A stretch of 64,000 bases of DNA from Candidatus Poribacteria bacterium (GCA_022822005.1 JAJECO010000023.1:29904-93903), one strand, 5' to 3'; positions 1-5,399 are shown, counted from the first letter of the stretch. The notes: generated from the sequence alone by a model not told the origin. Program-made: numbers and translations.

Positions 1-1
1 G

Positions 2-403
2 GAACGCGAGGCGGATTTCTATCTGGTCGATAACGCTGGATTGAGGCACCGTTGCGAAGTGAAGTTGATGGGCAGAGGGAATCCAGAAAGTGCGGATGCC
101 GTACATGCCCGTAGCAGCCAAGTTTTTGTTGCGGATAAACTCTCCGACCTGCATAAAGCACAACTCGACGATTCAGACATCCAGTGGGTAGAGCTGCGAG
201 ATGAAAACGGTTACAAGCGGTTTGAGCAGGTCTTAACGGCGTTATCAATTCCTTGTCAACCCTTTGAAGGTGATATACAGTCAGCGTTAGATGAGATCTT
301 TCCAGTTATACTTTCCGACGATGTTCAATCTTCATCAACCCCTGGTATTACTCTTCAAGAGCGGAGTAGTGATGATTCGCAGCTGCTCGTGGACTTTGAA
401 TAA
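2..403 (+). CDS. C-terminal fragment of unknown protein; the 5' end lies outside the window
   Basis: Frame 2 is open from the window edge, with no stop upstream of the ORF-track start at 41. There is no recognisable motif. Confidence 0.35.
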   Translation, partial: EREADFYLVDNAGLRHRCEVKLMGRGNPESADAVHARSSQVFVADKLSDLHKAQLDDSDIQWVELRDENGYKRFEQVLTALSIPCQPFEGDIQSALDEIFPVILSDDVQSSSTPGITLQERSSDDSQLLVDFE

Positions 404-564
404 AATAAAGTGCACAGGGACGGTATCGCCCTAAGCAACTAGACGATCGCCTCCCCATTGTGATGGACGAGGTGACGCCGATTGAGACAGAGTTGAAACT
501 TCCACCCCTTGATGGTGGAACGCAGGAGAAAAGAGTAAATCATGAAATACAATAAGGAGCAAAA

Positions 565-1002
565 ATGAAAAGACTCGTTATCCTTGCATGTTCACAGCGC
601 AAGGTTCAAGGTAAGCGCGTAATGCCTGCGATGGACAGATATGATGGTCCTGCGTATAAGGTTGTGCGGAAGTGGCTGCGCACTATTCCTGATGCTCGGC
701 CCCACCATGATTTTCTCATTTTATCGGCGGAGTTCGGGCTGATTTCCGAGAGCCAGCGTATCCCTTACTATGACCGGCGCATGAGTGTCGAGCGGGCGAA
801 AGAACTGCATGAGGAAACCCTCTATACTCTCAAGCCCATTTTAAGCTCTGGCATCTATCGCGCCGTTTTTGTCTGCATGGGCAAGACCTATCGGGGTGCA
901 ATTGAAGGCGTCAATGCCTTTTTTCCTGACATACAATACTCTCACGGTAGGATTGGTATGCAGCTCTCTCAACTCCGCCAATTTTTGTATAAGGCGGAAT
1001 AA
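565..1002 (+). CDS. hypothetical protein with conserved-looking N-terminal LACSxxK...DRYDGPxY motif
   Basis: AAGGAG RBS 7 nt upstream of the ATG. AT-rich codon usage typical of the island. It is basic, small and has no TM segments. Confidence 0.5.
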   Translation: MKRLVILACSQRKVQGKRVMPAMDRYDGPAYKVVRKWLRTIPDARPHHDFLILSAEFGLISESQRIPYYDRRMSVERAKELHEETLYTLKPILSSGIYRAVFVCMGKTYRGAIEGVNAFFPDIQYSHGRIGMQLSQLRQFLYKAE

Positions 1003-1023
1003 TTACAATAGCGAGGTGAAAGT

Positions 1024-1440
1024 ATGGTTTCAGAGCAAGTAATTAGGCGAATTACCGGTAAAACTGGTTTGTATTATACCGCTTTCAAGTTGTCTGAGCG
1101 TGGTTGGAATGTGTTTCCTCAAGAGAACGGTCTATATAAGCCTAATATATTGGTCTGTGAGAGCCTAGACGGAAACCGAAAGATGTGCGTCCAAGTCAGG
1201 AGCTTTAAGGATCGAGATCCCGTTCAAATCAGCCAAGGGGGTCTGAAGTGCAATTATTGGGTTATGGTGCACGCCATAGCGTCTGGCAAACCAGAGGCTT
1301 ACATTCTGCCTATTGATGAAGTCAAAAAACATCTGAAGCACAACGCCGGTGGGAGTGCCGTATGGTTAAATGAGAAGTTTAAGTATTATGAAGACAATCA
1401 ATTCAAAGAAAAATGGGAACAAATAGGAAACGGCTTTTAA
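1024..1440 (+). CDS. putative Hjc-like PD-(D/E)xK-fold protein, catalytic residues apparently degenerate
   Basis: GAGGTGA RBS. The pattern G..(S)ER.....-NILV-...VQVRS resembles the Hjc-type nuclease core, but with N/Q/R at the usual D/E/K positions. Confidence 0.35.
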   Translation: MVSEQVIRRITGKTGLYYTAFKLSERGWNVFPQENGLYKPNILVCESLDGNRKMCVQVRSFKDRDPVQISQGGLKCNYWVMVHAIASGKPEAYILPIDEVKKHLKHNAGGSAVWLNEKFKYYEDNQFKEKWEQIGNGF

Positions 1441-1674
1441 TCAACCCAGTATAAATTTACACTTTTTCACGTGAAGCGATGTCCTTGTTGATTTTGTGTA
1501 AAGCGTTTAGGGCAAATGCTTGATAAAATATGTTATCAGACATTTTGAGGTCATTTTTGGGGAAAGAAAGAAAATAAGATCCAGTCATAGCAAGGATCTT
1601 AACAGTCTCAATGAGCAAAAAATATGTCCGATAATTGTAGCGGAGCGATTTTGAAGTAGAACAAGGAGAACAAT

Positions 1675-1965
1675 ATGGCAAATTTACATGGTTTACAACC
1701 TAAACAACTTGCTCGGATTGGTATGTTTTATCTTGAGGAAGCAATTTTAGATGTGTTGTTTGAAGCAGAAATGGGCAATCGGCAAGGATTAGGTCCTACA
1801 GAAATTAGCAAGAGGCTTGGCACTTTTCTGCCATGGTATAACCCCGGAGATCTTATCGTTGCCGGTTTTCTAATAAAACTCGAAAATCAAGGCTTAGTCG
1901 TGCATCCTAGGCGCGGTGATTGGAGACTATCCGAAAAGGGGCGTGAAAATCGCCGTCACGATTGA
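1675..1965 (+). CDS. small winged-helix DNA-binding protein
   Basis: AAGGAG RBS. A 96-aa protein with the segment ISKRLG...GFLIKLENQGLV, typical of a wHTH recognition helix and wing. Confidence 0.5.
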   Translation: MANLHGLQPKQLARIGMFYLEEAILDVLFEAEMGNRQGLGPTEISKRLGTFLPWYNPGDLIVAGFLIKLENQGLVVHPRRGDWRLSEKGRENRRHD

Positions 1966-1981
1966 TGAAGGGAGCGTCAAT

Positions 1982-2461
1982 ATGCGAACCGTCAGGGTTG
2001 AATGGGAGGGACCACTCTCTCTTGACAAAGTGAAAGAGTTAGACGACAGAGACGAGGACTGCGGTTTATACCAGATCTATGGTCGCCACATCATCTTCGG
2101 AGATGATTCCCTGCTCTACATTGGAATGACAACCTCGACTTTCAGGCGACGATTTATTGATGGCACCGAACCACACATATCGTGGCTAGTGGAGGAGGAG
2201 GGGGTGTCGGTTTATGTGGGTCGAATTGCGGAAGAAGATTATGAGCATGATCCGCCACATTGGTCAGATTGGGAGAATGTTCTCAAGGATGCTGAAGCAC
2301 TTACCATCAAATGGCACTCACCGCCATATAATTCACGCAACATTGAAACCTATAACGGTCAGCGCCTGGAAGTTGTGAATCTTGGTAGTTACGGTAGTTT
2401 ATGCAAAAAATACAGAAGTCGAGACCGTAAAAGGTGGGGGTGGTCAGGAGATTACGGTTAG
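1982..2461 (+). CDS. GIY-YIG nuclease-domain protein
   Basis: GLYQIYG...LLYIGMT...FRRRF matches the GIY-(10-15 aa)-YIG-Arg core. ATG at 1982 with a GAAGGGA RBS. A GTG at 1916 is an alternative start that would overlap the wHTH gene. Confidence 0.6.
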   Translation: MRTVRVEWEGPLSLDKVKELDDRDEDCGLYQIYGRHIIFGDDSLLYIGMTTSTFRRRFIDGTEPHISWLVEEEGVSVYVGRIAEEDYEHDPPHWSDWENVLKDAEALTIKWHSPPYNSRNIETYNGQRLEVVNLGSYGSLCKKYRSRDRKRWGWSGDYG

Positions 2462-2773
2462 TCTTTTGATTGTTTCCAAATGAAAGGGGGAATTAGCGAA
2501 TAAGAGCAGCATAGAATCAATAGGGAGGCACCATTGAGATAACGTAAGACAAAAGTTGTGTCGTCGGAAATTTGCTTTGCCTGTTTTAATGCCGAAACAT
2601 TAAGCGAATGTGCCGGTTCATTCCAGAAGGGTTTTAGAAATGCCGATGGCAATCCGAGACGTGAAAAGGTCACGATAAATATCCGAAGAATCCCGGATGA
2701 CGCCCTTGTTGCTATTCGGGAATTCTAGCCCAAAACCACGGCGACGTTGGACGGGTAGAGGAAGATTTGACAA

Positions 2774-3205
2774 ATGGATTCTATAAAAGACTTTATAACT
2801 GACTGGTCAATTATGGGAGCTATTCTAAAAATAGTAATAGTTGCTTCTCCATTCTTAATCAGACAAATAGCCAAACTTGTCAACCTCAGAAAAGACATGG
2901 AAGGACTCAAATTAATTATAGACGGGGACAAAAAGCAAATTGCTACTGACAGAGCAAATACTAAGGAAGATATGGAGTACGCTAAGAAATACAGGGACGA
3001 AGCTAGGGCAGATAAAATCGCAATTGAACAAATGAAAGAAGATATTACAAAAAAAGTAGAAGCCGTCAACAGTCAACTTTCTAGCGCCCGAAGCCGCGCA
3101 GAGCTTAGCTCCATAGGTGGTGAAACAGAAAGGGCTAGCAGAGAAAAACGGATAGAGTTAGAAAAGATCGCAGAGATAGTTAAGAAACACCTGAAGCCAT
3201 ATTAA
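2774..3205 (+). CDS. membrane-anchored coiled-coil protein
   Basis: N-terminal hydrophobic helix (WSIMGAILKIVIVASPFLI) followed by a Lys/Glu-rich coiled-coil. About 35% GC. Confidence 0.45.
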   Translation: MDSIKDFITDWSIMGAILKIVIVASPFLIRQIAKLVNLRKDMEGLKLIIDGDKKQIATDRANTKEDMEYAKKYRDEARADKIAIEQMKEDITKKVEAVNSQLSSARSRAELSSIGGETERASREKRIELEKIAEIVKKHLKPY

Positions 3206-3284
3206 AGATTGGAACTTTTCAAGAGGTGTTGTGGAATACTTTGAATATCGACGCATTTCAAAAAAATAAAAGGAGATTGCCATT

Positions 3285-4004
3285 ATGCAACTTGGAGACA
3301 TACCCGACTCAAACCTTCGCACTGTGATTGCCGTTCAACTTGAAGAGCAGGCAGTTAATGATTTAGCTGATGCGCGGGAATTAAATTTACAAGAGACTGG
3401 TATAAGCAAATTGGATGGACTTGAAAAGGCAAAGAAGTTGGTTGTTCTAAGAGCAGGCGGTAATTCTATCTCCGATTTGTCGCCTTTGAAAGAGTTAACC
3501 AATTTGAAGACTCTCGATTTTTGGGGGAATACGATAGAAAATATTTTACCTCTAAAAGGATTGAAAAATTTGCGTGGATTGTGGTTCCAGAACAATCAGA
3601 TAAAGGATTTGTCCCCTTTGGAGGACTTAATCAACCTAGAATATCTGAATCTTGAGGGCAATAAGATAAAACATATTACCTCTTTACAGGGGCTAACTAA
3701 TCTGAGGTGGCTATGGCTACAAAACAACTCAATAGAAGACATATCATCGCTTGCTGATATGGAAGGATTGGAGGGTTTGTGGCTTCAGGATAACTTGATA
3801 ACCAACATTGCGACTCTGAAGAGAATTTCCAAACTGACAAGGCTGGAGATTGACATAAATTCACTGTCAGATTTTGAATATCTAAAAGGACTAAGGAATA
3901 AGCATAGACTAGTGGTTGAGATAGAATCTCCAGTACCTTTGAGTTTCTTCGACGGTGACGGGCGAGGAGGCATCCTGAAAGTGGTTGTTAGGGAATATAA
4001 TTAG
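3285..4004 (+). CDS. leucine-rich-repeat (internalin-type) protein
   Basis: About eight 22-aa repeats of LxxLxxLxxLxLxxNxIxDIxxL. AAGGAG RBS. No signal peptide. Confidence 0.7.
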   Translation: MQLGDIPDSNLRTVIAVQLEEQAVNDLADARELNLQETGISKLDGLEKAKKLVVLRAGGNSISDLSPLKELTNLKTLDFWGNTIENILPLKGLKNLRGLWFQNNQIKDLSPLEDLINLEYLNLEGNKIKHITSLQGLTNLRWLWLQNNSIEDISSLADMEGLEGLWLQDNLITNIATLKRISKLTRLEIDINSLSDFEYLKGLRNKHRLVVEIESPVPLSFFDGDGRGGILKVVVREYN

Positions 4005-4106
4005 GGGTGTTATTTATAATTTTCAACGATTTACGGGCGATGGATTGGACATCTGACTGAACATCGGGGTAGTCCCTGTTTAATTCTGATCTTTCCGAGT
4101 TCGCCA

Positions 4107-5399
4107 ATGCAGCCCAGGAGATCCTCCTTGAGCACAACAACAACCAATAGCAGCGAACCAATCGGATACCGTGAACTGATTCGCGGCAACCGTAATTTTC
4201 GCCTGCTCTGGTTTGGACAGATTATCAGCCTCCTGGGGGATTGGTTCAACTTTGTCGCTTCCGCTTCGCTCATCGCAATACTCACCCAGTCCGGGTTCGC
4301 TGTCGGCAGCCTCTTCGTCGTCCGGATGCTCGCCCCATTCTTCATCAGTCCCATCGCTGGTGTGGTCGCCGACCGTTATAACCGCAAAAATATCCTCATC
4401 ATAACCGACCTAACGCGTGCTGTAGCCGCATTCGGTTTCCTCTTCGTCCGGAGCGCCGATCATGTCTGGCTCCTTTACGTTCTCACCGCCCTCCAACTCG
4501 GCATCAGCGGCTTCTTCTTCCCCACACGCAATGCAATTTTACCCGATATAGTTTCATCACAAGGGCTTGGTGCTGCCAACGCCTTAGGGTCCGCGACATG
4601 GTCGGTTATGCTCGCCGTGGGCGCTGCCATCGGCGGAATAGTGTCCGGCGCGTGGGGCATCTACCCCGCCTTTGTCATTGACGGCTTGACCTTTCTCCTC
4701 TCTGCTGCATTCATCATTCCCATTAAACTTGATGCGAAACCCGCCCCCGCGGCGTCGGACAAAACTATGGGGGCTGCCGTCACGGAGTACCTCGACGGTT
4801 TACGTTATCTGGGCAGGCATACCGATACACTGGTCGTCGCACTACATAAAGCCGCCAGCGCACTGGTGATGGGGTCAGGATCTCAGGTCGCAATGGTCGT
4901 CATCGCCAAAGATATCTTTGTAATTGGGGAAGGTGGGGGTATCAGTCTCGGTCTCATGCTTGGGATGGGCGGCATCGGAACAGGGATCGGTCCCATTATC
5001 GCTCGCCATTTCACCGGGGATCGGGATCGTCCGTTGCGGTATGCCATCATTTTGGGCTATCTGATGGGCGCTGTGGGACTGGCAATCGTCGCGCCGATGA
5101 TCCAATTCGGCTGGGTGCTTCTGGGTGTCACCCTCCGTGGAATTGGCGGGGGAATTATATGGGTGTTCTCAACACAACTCTTATTGCAGCTCGCCCCCAA
5201 TTCGGTGCGTGGCAGGGTTTTCTCCACCGACTATGCCCTTTTTACACTGATGAGCGCCATCGGTTCTGCGGCTGCGGGCGGGGCACTCGACGCCTCACTG
5301 AGCCTCCCTGCAATTTTCTGGTGGATGGCGGGTTTGACGGTGATCCCAGCGGTTCTCTGGGCGGCATGGCTGGGCGACAGAACCGAACACGAAACGTAA
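4107..5399 (+). CDS. MFS transporter
   Basis: 12 predicted TM segments. N-terminal FRLLWFGQ...LGDW motif of EntS/macrolide-efflux-like MFS transporters. Confidence 0.8.
   Translation: MQPRRSSLSTTTTNSSEPIGYRELIRGNRNFRLLWFGQIISLLGDWFNFVASASLIAILTQSGFAVGSLFVVRMLAPFFISPIAGVVADRYNRKNILIITDLTRAVAAFGFLFVRSADHVWLLYVLTALQLGISGFFFPTRNAILPDIVSSQGLGAANALGSATWSVMLAVGAAIGGIVSGAWGIYPAFVIDGLTFLLSAAFIIPIKLDAKPAPAASDKTMGAAVTEYLDGLRYLGRHTDTLVVALHKAASALVMGSGSQVAMVVIAKDIFVIGEGGGISLGLMLGMGGIGTGIGPIIARHFTGDRDRPLRYAIILGYLMGAVGLAIVAPMIQFGWVLLGVTLRGIGGGIIWVFSTQLLLQLAPNSVRGRVFSTDYALFTLMSAIGSAAAGGALDASLSLPAIFWWMAGLTVIPAVLWAAWLGDRTEHET

What the first reader, a model, noticed from the sequence alone, without database searches (positions are those of the whole stretch)
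1675..2461. wHTH protein immediately followed by a small GIY-YIG nuclease-domain protein
The 160-aa GIY-YIG protein has an intact GLY-x15-YIG-x8-R core, but it lacks the large DNA-binding extensions of homing endonucleases and the UvrC context. A short wHTH gene sits 17 nt upstream; a GTG at 1916 would even overlap it. This reads as a two-gene module, either a regulator or specificity factor plus nuclease, or an anti-toxin/toxin-like arrangement.
Basis: partly seen in the sequence, partly recalled or inferred. Interest (0 to 1): 0.5.

Follow-up and report, generated by a model that had tools for sequence, protein, structure and literature searches.

The report
Small regulator plus swappable nuclease gene
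In a defence-gene hot spot of a sponge-symbiont (Poribacteria) genome, a small DNA-binding protein gene is followed by a compact nuclease gene; the pairing recurs, but each gene is also found with other partners or alone, so this is most likely a regulator in front of an exchangeable defence nuclease, not a toxin-antitoxin pair.

Summary
Both genes are real. The wHTH gene is 1675-1965 (96 aa) and the GIY-YIG gene is 1982-2461 (159 aa). They are 16 nt apart and each has a Shine-Dalgarno site. All five GIY-YIG catalytic positions are invariant across the family, and the predicted fold matches R.Eco29kI, T4 EndoII, UvrC and I-TevI.

The pairing recurs. In 8 of 14 distinct wHTH contexts, all from Poribacteria, this GIY gene lies directly downstream. 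It is not obligate. Close wHTH relatives instead precede an HNH nuclease, an HsdR_N nuclease, a PLD nuclease, an FRG protein or a complete C5-methylase/HaeII system. The GIY gene also follows other genes, and in seven genomes it stands alone between housekeeping genes. wHTH phylogeny does not track the partner.

A conserved ~120-bp leader with three GTCCGATAA copies precedes these operons, whatever gene comes first. The locus is a chromosomal hot spot upstream of an orthologous MFS gene.

Best reading (0.45): a controller-like regulator ahead of a self-sufficient defence nuclease. A split modification-dependent restriction enzyme is the main rival. A toxin-antitoxin arrangement is unlikely.

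The parts
1518..1646 (+). Conserved non-coding leader of the operon. It runs from a degenerate hairpin or palindrome, through an ~85-bp conserved core, to a second GTCCGATAA site.
   Evidence: 75-84% identical to the stretch upstream of the first gene in L001-L004, L010, L011, L017, L054, L081, L089, L091-L093, L095 and L098-L102, whatever that first gene is. The reading frame is not preserved: there are 1-, 2- and 12-nt indels. No Rfam match.
1518..1541 (.). First palindrome (arms 1518-1526 GCTTGATAA and 1533-1541 TTATCAGAC). This is a degenerate copy of GTCCGATAA-N5-6-TTATCGGAC, followed by ATTTT.
   Evidence: Predicted folding energy is -8.4 kcal/mol here, against about -15 in relatives.
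1579..1591 (+). Nearly invariant core ATCCAGTCATAGC of the leader.
   Evidence: Alignment and sequences.
1626..1645 (.). Third GTCCGATAA copy (1626-1634) with a degenerate right arm TAGCGGAG (1638-1645). In most leaders where wHTH is the first gene this is a full hairpin, GTCCGATA-N4-TATCGGAC, followed by GTGATTTTGAA.
1675..1965 (+). wHTH gene (96 aa). Member of a small family seen only in Poribacteria (30 clusters).
   Evidence: Pfam gives only a weak Mrr_N hit (E=0.0076).
1966..1981 (+). Standard junction and ribosome-binding site (TGAAGGGAGCGTCAAT). It is shared by GIY genes whatever lies upstream, and by wHTH genes that follow another gene.
1982..2461 (+). GIY-YIG nuclease gene (159 aa). 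Catalytic positions are Y30/Y33, Y46, R57, E105 and N117.
2481..2735 (+). Remnant of the 3' end of a gene (56 codons, 2558-2728) that in L011 is a 221-aa ORF following an N6/N4 DNA methylase. It marks a past deletion next to the GIY gene.
   Evidence: 90% DNA identity to L011 8097-8351. 87.5% aa identity over 56 residues. Pfam on the L011 neighbours.
1..403 (+). Context: C-terminal part of a type II restriction endonuclease (CfrBI-like). It is orthologous to the 330-aa gene upstream of the leader in L003 and L010.
   Evidence: PADLOC REase_II E=6.7e-23. 92% and 71% aa identity to L010 and L003.
565..1440 (+). Context: DUF6884/PDC-M57A-like gene (565-1002) and an unknown 138-aa gene (1024-1440). 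In this window they lie between the restriction gene and the leader.
   Evidence: A homologue of the 138-aa gene lies directly upstream of the GIY gene in L054.
4107..5399 (+). Context: MFS transporter gene marking the downstream edge of the hot spot.
   Evidence: 87-89% aa identity to the MFS gene downstream of the wHTH+HNH, wHTH+GIY and wHTH+FRG islands in L082, L093 and L098-L101.

Best explanation
The pair is two adjacent cassettes of one operon in a Poribacteria defence-gene hot spot. A conserved ~120-bp leader carries the promoter region. The first gene encodes a small winged-helix DNA-binding protein. I infer that it acts as a controller-type transcription regulator of the operon, limiting or timing expression, possibly by binding the repeated GTCCGATAA sites of the leader. 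The second gene encodes a compact, self-sufficient one-metal GIY-YIG DNA endonuclease (Tyr30/33, Tyr46, Arg57, Glu105, Asn117) that serves as an exchangeable defence effector.

Shown: both genes, both folds, the conserved catalytic residues, the recurring adjacency, the conserved leader and junctions, the exchange of partners, and the hot-spot location among restriction-modification genes and defence-candidate genes.

Inferred: that the wHTH regulates transcription, what it binds, and that the nuclease acts on foreign DNA.

For: 2. Position. The wHTH sits 0-19 nt upstream of a nuclease or restriction gene in 12 of 14 contexts; in a thirteenth (L104) the PLD nuclease follows after a 208-nt gap. 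Eight are GIY-YIG; the others are HNH, HsdR_N, FRG/PDC-S15 and a complete M.C5+R.HaeII system. The last needs no extra specificity subunit. This is the position controller proteins hold in R-M systems (PMC2175313, PMC6237814). Regulators such as BrxR and RptR likewise head diverse defence islands (PMC9122601, PMC12255303).

3. No co-divergence. wHTHs with GIY partners are intermingled in the tree with those that have other partners. For example, L086 (HsdR_N) groups with L011 (GIY), and L091 (M+R) groups with L095 (GIY). GIY proteins 80-94% identical to the window's follow either a wHTH or an HSDR_N gene.

4. Leader. A conserved leader with three copies of one 9-mer lies upstream of the operon in 10 of 14 wHTH contexts. 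The second site is a complete palindrome in most leaders where wHTH is the first gene, and in only one of the others.

5. The GIY gene is self-sufficient. It stands alone with intact catalytic residues between H+-PPase and accC in seven Poribacteria genomes. It is also a stand-alone 145-190-aa protein in most of 1,225 representative clusters across many phyla.
Against: No binding site has been demonstrated.

The same leader also heads operons that lack a wHTH (L002, L003, L004, L010, L017, L054). Regulation there would have to work in trans.

The GTCCGATAA palindromes have variable spacers (4-8 nt). They usually sit just after stop codons, between an A-run and a T-run. That looks more like terminator or cassette-boundary hairpins than operators for a dimer.

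In L089 and L093 the wHTH is the second gene of the operon.

A nuclease that stands unregulated in other genomes does not obviously need a controller.

The winged-helix fold is too generic to separate a regulator from a DNA-targeting subunit.
Confidence: 0.45

Rival explanations
1. Split modification-dependent (type IV-like) restriction enzyme. The wHTH would be a separate DNA- or modification-reading subunit that recruits or licenses whichever small nuclease is encoded next to it.
For: The partner set is GIY-YIG, HNH, PD-(D/E)XK (HsdR_N) and PLD. These are the same four nuclease folds found covalently fused to winged-helix 6mA sensors in characterised type IV enzymes: wH-GIY-YIG Ahi29725I/Apa233I, wH-HNH, PD-(D/E)XK-wH and PLD-wH (PMC11037411). 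The genes are tightly coupled, with a 16-19 nt gap or overlapping stop and start. There is a weak Pfam hit to the Mrr N-terminal winged helix (E=0.0076). At 159 aa the nuclease has little room for its own DNA-recognition domain, and some relatives carry ~100-aa C-terminal extensions instead.
Against: One wHTH lineage (60-77% identical) would have to dock onto four unrelated nuclease folds, plus an FRG protein. There is no co-divergence with partner type. It also directly precedes a complete methylase+HaeII system. The GIY gene works without it in many genomes. A family profile finds no similarity to DpnI or any other solved winged-helix sensor, and the top structural matches are repressors. 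No wHTH-GIY fusion was found among the N-terminally extended members inspected from the best 150 of the 1,225 representatives.
Confidence: 0.2
2. Independent neighbours. wHTH and GIY would be separate cassettes that often end up adjacent because both belong to the same shuffling pool of Poribacteria defence-island genes. They would share a promoter but no functional dependence.
For: Both genes are exchanged freely. Standard junction sequences flank the wHTH gene, and it appears precisely inserted or deleted between HSDR_N and GIY genes: compare L089/L093 with L003/L010. The same chromosomal hot spot holds different cargo in different strains. Many other cassettes end in the same hairpin.
Against: 8 of 14 wHTH contexts have this one family directly downstream, in one orientation, with a nearly identical junction. 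That is more than expected from random shuffling among the many cassette types seen. The wHTH is almost always directly followed by a nuclease or restriction gene, or an FRG/PDC-S15 defence-candidate gene, never by a housekeeping gene, except in the most distant homologue (L088).
Confidence: 0.25
3. Toxin-antitoxin or immunity pair. The GIY nuclease would be a toxin and the wHTH its neutralising antitoxin, possibly also acting as autorepressor.
For: A small DNA-binding protein gene sits immediately upstream of a small nuclease gene in one operon, in a mobile-looking region.
Against: GIY genes with all catalytic residues intact occur without any wHTH within 6 kb in 17 of 20 Poribacteria loci from representative genomes, and in every non-Poribacteria locus. 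Seven of these lie between housekeeping genes. The wHTH pairs with many unrelated proteins. There are no hits to defence or TA models.
Confidence: 0.05

Closest known systems
Controller (C) proteins of type II restriction-modification systems (e.g. C.PvuII, C.AhdI, C.Kpn2I)
   Same: A small DNA-binding protein is encoded immediately upstream of, and co-transcribed with, a nuclease gene. Repeated sites lie in the upstream region. In L091/L092 the wHTH directly precedes a methylase and a HaeII-type endonuclease.
   Different: C proteins are Xre-type helix-turn-helix proteins with defined C-boxes. This protein is a winged helix with no sequence similarity to them. Its binding site is not known. 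Most of its partners are solitary nucleases with no methylase.
Defence-island regulators BrxR/CapW (wHTH-WYL) and RptR
   Same: One regulator family is found at the head of many different defence systems and islands. RptR binds three repeats in the island promoter (PMC9122601, PMC12255303).
   Different: This protein has no WYL sensor domain and no sequence similarity to these regulators. RptR has a different fold. This family is seen only in Poribacteria.
Winged-helix fusion endonucleases (wH-GIY-YIG Ahi29725I/Apa233I, wH-HNH, PD-(D/E)XK-wH DpnI-like, PLD-wH): 6mA-dependent type IV restriction (PMC11037411)
   Same: A winged helix is combined with the same four nuclease folds, with wH N-terminal to GIY-YIG.
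   Different: Here the two are separate polypeptides. The same wHTH lineage serves all partners. No similarity to the DpnI-type winged helix was detected. Modification sensing is untested.
CMoRE / PD-T4-3, a single-gene GIY-YIG defence nuclease specific for 5hmC DNA (PMC12923530)
   Different: [quoted passage not shown] This protein has GLYQIY (tyrosines three apart), is 159 aa and has no sensing domain. It gave no hit to any PADLOC model.
R.Eco29kI / R.Hpy188I-type GIY-YIG restriction endonucleases and T4 EndoII
   Different: Sequence identity is 14-21% with no sequence-level hit. There is no consistently linked methylase.

Membership tests
GIY-YIG nuclease superfamily | GIY motif tyrosine and YIG motif tyrosine on adjacent beta-strands | tested here: met
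   Y30/Y33 in GLYQIYG and Y46 in LLYIG. Y33, Y46 and G48 are invariant in 35 sequences. Strands 28-36 and 40-50 appear in the model.
GIY-YIG nuclease superfamily | Conserved Arg after YIG, plus catalytic Glu and metal-binding Asn | tested here: met
   R57, E105 and N117 are invariant. Spacings are typical: Y46 to R57 is 11 residues, and E105 to N117 is 12.
GIY-YIG nuclease superfamily | GIY-YIG alpha/beta fold | tested here: met
GIY-YIG nuclease superfamily | Pfam PF01541 match above the gathering score | tested here: not met
   17.6 bits against 22.6 (E=0.005), over the full profile length. 13 of 35 relatives hit it, best E=8.7e-5. This is a divergent subfamily not captured by the current model.
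GIY-YIG nuclease superfamily | Metal-dependent DNA cleavage | not testable with these tools
   Needs a biochemical assay.
Winged helix-turn-helix DNA-binding proteins | Three-helix bundle with a beta-hairpin wing | tested here: met
Mrr N-terminal domain (PF14338) | Pfam match above the gathering score | tested here: not met
   16.8 bits against 29.5, covering the wing region only (67-91). One relative carries a precomputed PF14338 hit.
R-M controller (C) proteins | Xre-type HTH (HTH_3) fold and C-box operator | tested here: not met
   The fold is a winged helix, and there is no HTH_3 hit. The repeats upstream are of a different kind, and binding is untested.
R-M controller (C) proteins | Gene immediately upstream of, and co-oriented with, a restriction nuclease gene | tested here: met
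   12 of 14 contexts.
Type II toxin-antitoxin pair | Toxin gene is not maintained without its cognate antitoxin gene | tested here: not met
   Intact GIY genes lack a wHTH in most loci.
wH-nuclease fusion type IV restriction enzymes | Winged helix and nuclease in one polypeptide | tested here: not met
   They are separate genes. Long GIY variants carry C-terminal extensions, not a wHTH. No such fusion was found among the extended representatives.
wH-nuclease fusion type IV restriction enzymes | Winged helix that reads 6mA or another modification | not testable with these tools
   No sequence similarity to DpnI. Needs binding assays with modified DNA.
CMoRE / PD-T4-3 | [quoted passage not shown] | tested here: not met
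   The motif is GLYQIY and there is no second domain. No PADLOC hit.

The most novel reading that the evidence does not exclude
Poribacteria may have a plug-and-play restriction platform. It would comprise a conserved leader, standard ribosome-binding junctions and a small free-standing winged-helix DNA reader. This would be a split, combinatorial counterpart of the fused winged-helix type IV restriction enzymes, with island-specific GTCCGATAA hairpins and junctions providing the homology for cassette exchange.
Probability: 0.15. Interest if true: 0.7.

Novelty: new variant of a known kind. Interest (0 to 1): 0.4.

Why it matters
The GIY-YIG protein belongs to a sizeable family with no description, no Pfam family and no solved structure. 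It has about 1,200 representative clusters at 50% identity, mostly 145-190-aa stand-alone proteins across many phyla.

In Poribacteria this nuclease has been drawn into a modular set of defence cassettes. The set shares a leader, shared junctions and a lineage-specific winged-helix protein, and it occupies a recurring chromosomal hot spot. If the winged helix is a controller, it adds a new and very small regulator family to the short list known to govern defence islands. If it is a trans-acting DNA reader, it shows that winged-helix-guided restriction can be assembled from separate parts.

Either way, the locus gives concrete, testable parts for studying defence in sponge symbionts, which cannot yet be cultured.

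Tried and rejected
- **Sequence searches for the two proteins.** NCBIfam, PHROGs, PADLOC and the PDB (single sequence and profile) gave nothing significant for either protein.
- **Rfam.** A scan of 1-5000 found nothing relevant to the leader.
- **Promoter scan.** No sigma-70 consensus on the + strand of the leader.
- **Conserved neighbours.** All-against-all clustering of neighbours across 80 loci found none outside local synteny.
- **Integron-like reading of the hairpins.** A tyrosine recombinase lies near the array only in L089. No relative of it is in the window or, apart from one weak, distant hit (L060), in any other locus. The hairpin does not fit attC core sites. Rejected.
- **Coding potential of the leader's minus-strand ORF (1457-1681).** Rejected because indels break the frame.
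- **Metagenome scan for the leader core (ATCCAGTCATAGCNNGG).** None carried the rest of the leader, a wHTH or a GIY gene, so these were chance matches. That used the only metagenome scan.
- **Phages and viral contigs.** No GIY relative in 50,697 phage records. Only 2 distant relatives in 2.9 million viral contigs. No leader in viral contigs. It is therefore not a phage homing-endonuclease family.
- **Plasmids.** Nine Bacillus plasmids carry distant relatives, in variable accessory regions.
- **Rosetta-stone fusions.** N-terminally extended family members carry GNAT, unannotated or sigma-70-r4-like regions. None resembles the wHTH.
- **AlphaFold database fold search.** Not available on the machine.
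- **GTG 1916 as start.** Rejected.

Full report
**What is there.**
The window carries, on the + strand, a 96-aa ORF (1675-1965) and a 159-aa ORF (1982-2461). They are separated by 16 nt, and each has a good Shine-Dalgarno site (AAGGAG 1663-1668; GAAGGGAG 1967-1974).

The alternative GTG at 1916 is not supported. Homologues start MR(T/S)VRV at the ATG, and the sequence just before it is a conserved ribosome-binding junction.

**The nuclease.**
Curated libraries barely see it. Pfam GIY-YIG scores E=0.005, below its cut-off, though over the full profile. NCBIfam, PHROGs, PADLOC and PDB sequence searches found nothing.

A homologue search found 103 clusters, none annotated. A profile search of 1.84 billion representatives found 1,225 at E<=0.001 and 778 at E<=1e-10. 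Most are stand-alone proteins of 145-190 aa.

In an alignment of 35 diverse members, G28, Y33, G34, H36, Y46, G48, R57, E105, H112, P114, Y116 and N117 are invariant. These include every canonical GIY-YIG catalytic position. 13 of the 35 reach Pfam GIY-YIG at E<=0.1.

The family is cellular rather than viral. There is no hit in 50,697 phage records and only two distant hits in 2.9 million viral contigs. A few relatives lie on large Bacillus plasmids in variable accessory regions.

**The upstream protein.**

The family is small, with 30 clusters. Members whose source organism is named are from Candidatus Poribacteria. One member is 100% identical to the window protein. The GIY gene's closest genomic relatives are also in Poribacteria genomes. 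The window is therefore from a poribacterium, a sponge symbiont.

**Is it a module?**
I examined 14 distinct wHTH contexts.
- **GIY gene directly downstream (8 contexts):** the window, L001, L011, L063, L089/90, L093/94, L095 and L102/103. The junction is nearly identical in these.
- **Other partners:** an HNH nuclease (L081-85), an 89-aa HsdR_N nuclease (L086/87), a C5 methylase plus HaeII-type endonuclease (L091/92, where the GIY gene lies upstream instead), an FRG or FRG-TPR protein matching PDC-S15 (L098-101), and a PLD-type protein after a 208-nt gap (L104).
- **No related partner:** L088, the most distant homologue.

From the GIY side, only 3 of 20 Poribacteria loci from representative genomes have the wHTH. 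Others have an HSDR_N-domain gene (some with DUF4268, matching PDC-S11), a TPR gene or an unknown gene upstream. In seven genomes the GIY gene stands alone between H+-pyrophosphatase and biotin carboxylase. In one it follows seryl-tRNA synthetase. Outside Poribacteria no neighbour is conserved.

A neighbour-joining tree of the wHTH proteins mixes the partner types. GIY proteins 80-94% identical to the window's have different upstream genes. The adjacency is therefore frequent and ordered, but neither gene depends on the other.

**The surroundings.**
A ~120-bp non-coding leader (window 1518-1646) is 75-84% identical across loci whose first gene differs. It has three parts:
- a palindrome, GTCCGATAA-N5-6-TTATCGGAC, followed by ATTTT;
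- a core with the nearly invariant ATCCAGTCATAGC, a variable 14-nt spacer and AGTCTCAATAAGCAAAAAATAT;
- a third GTCCGATAA copy.

In most leaders where wHTH is the first gene, that third copy is itself a full hairpin followed by GTGATTTTGAA. The window's two hairpins are degenerate.

The full operon, seen in L089 and L093, is leader, HSDR_N gene, wHTH, GIY. The window lacks the first gene, and L002, L003 and L010 lack the wHTH. The junction TGAAAGGAGYGTCAAT-ATG precedes both wHTH and GIY genes, so the wHTH looks precisely inserted or deleted.

The GTCCGATAA hairpin recurs after the stop codons of many other cassettes in these islands. There are 54 exact 9-mers in 0.97 Mb against about 7 expected. 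Loops are 4-8 nt, with an A-run before and a T-run after. In the 64-kb window it occurs exactly only once. It is therefore specific to these islands, not genome-wide.

The island sits at a chromosomal hot spot. The MFS gene at 4107-5399 is 87-89% identical to the MFS gene downstream of wHTH+HNH, wHTH+GIY and wHTH+FRG islands in other strains.

The neighbouring genes fit a defence island:
- a CfrBI-like restriction gene at 1-403, shared with L003 and L010;
- a DUF6884/PDC-M57A-like gene;
- an unknown 138-aa gene, whose homologue directly precedes the GIY gene in L054;
- a remnant of a restriction-modification-linked gene at 2481-2735.

**Mechanism.**
My preferred reading (0.45) is that the wHTH is a controller-type regulator at the head of an operon whose last gene is an exchangeable, self-sufficient GIY-YIG defence nuclease. 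Four observations support this:
- its fold class;
- its fixed position just upstream of nuclease or restriction genes, including a complete R-M system;
- its indifference to partner identity;
- the repeated sites in a conserved leader.

Known analogues are R-M controller proteins and the defence-island regulators BrxR and RptR.

Four observations weaken it:
- the leader also heads operons without a wHTH;
- the palindromes look more like terminator or boundary hairpins than operators;
- the wHTH is sometimes the second gene;
- the nuclease stands unregulated elsewhere.

The main functional rival (0.2) is a split type IV-like enzyme. The partner folds match the four nuclease folds that are fused to winged-helix 6mA sensors in characterised enzymes (PMC11037411). 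Against this, one wHTH lineage would have to dock onto unrelated folds without co-divergence. No fusion or DpnI-like similarity was found either.

Simple co-residence of independent cassettes gets 0.25. A toxin-antitoxin pair gets 0.05, because intact GIY genes are widely maintained alone.

**Verdict.**

The GIY protein is a new, divergent member of a known superfamily. The arrangement is a lineage-specific variant of the regulator-plus-defence-effector theme, and the shared leader, junction and hairpin architecture deserves follow-up. Interest is moderate (0.4).

Noticed in passing
window 1518-1541 and 1626-1645; L001-L017, L054, L063, L081-L103 at many sites: An island-specific hairpin, GTCCGATAA-N4-8-TTATCGGA(C/T), flanked by an A-run and a T-run. 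It sits just after the stop codons of many unrelated cassettes in Poribacteria defence islands (54 exact 9-mers in 0.97 Mb against about 7 expected). Only one exact copy occurs in the 64-kb window. It could be a shared terminator, a cassette-boundary repeat or a protein-binding site.
   Followed up: partly
window 1966-1981; L002, L003, L010, L089, L091, L093 junctions: The junction TGAAAGGAGYGTCAAT-ATG precedes both wHTH and GIY genes whatever lies upstream. The wHTH gene therefore appears precisely inserted or deleted between the HSDR_N-type gene and the GIY gene. The repeat could provide homology for cassette exchange.
   Followed up: partly
window 1579-1615 (minus strand): The leader alternates conserved, variable 14-16 nt and conserved segments. 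Read on the minus strand, this fits a promoter: TTGAGA, 16 nt, TATGAC, with a TG extension. That would drive a short divergent or antisense transcript ending at the first hairpin. The promoter scan did not call it because its last base is C.
   Followed up: no
window 2481-2735: A remnant (56 codons, 87.5% aa identity) of the 3' end of a 221-aa gene. In L011 that gene follows an N6/N4 DNA methylase just downstream of the GIY gene. A restriction-modification pair seems to have been deleted here.
   Followed up: partly
window 565-1440; L054 5524-5922; L092 30-434: A DUF6884/PDC-M57A-like gene followed by an unknown 138-aa gene. Homologues of the 138-aa gene occur in other GIY islands, once directly upstream of the GIY gene. 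It is another member of the cassette pool.
   Followed up: partly
window 4107-5399 and L082, L093, L098-L101: An orthologous MFS transporter gene (87-89% aa identity) marks the downstream edge of a strain-variable island. Hydantoinase genes mark the upstream side in L098-L101.
   Followed up: partly
window 2774-4004: A 143-aa coiled-coil-like protein with no family hit and a 239-aa leucine-rich-repeat protein lie between the GIY gene and the MFS gene. Their role in the island is unknown.
   Followed up: no
L091, L092: Two ~70-kb contigs named with a '_c' suffix, possibly circular, carry leader, TPR gene, GIY, wHTH, M.C5 and R.HaeII in that order. Here the GIY gene is upstream of the wHTH.
   Followed up: no
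GIY protein residues 20-27 and 68-73; alignment A1: There are conserved acidic stretches: DDxDED just before the GIY motif and a WLxEEEG loop. The second recalls the inhibitory acidic loop described for CMoRE. The resemblance is untested.
   Followed up: no
P0011, P0033, P0057, P0063 and others; L010, L011, L102: About a fifth of close GIY relatives carry one of two unrelated ~100-aa C-terminal extensions with no family hit. These may be built-in DNA-recognition domains.
   Followed up: no
L001 6580-7506; L004 2075-2467; L054 6651-6986: Other GIY-YIG-type genes (a PF01541 hit, a T5orf172/MUG113 hit and a 111-aa GIY-YIG) lie directly downstream of this GIY gene in several islands. In L054 one of them is preceded by its own copy of the leader.
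   Followed up: partly
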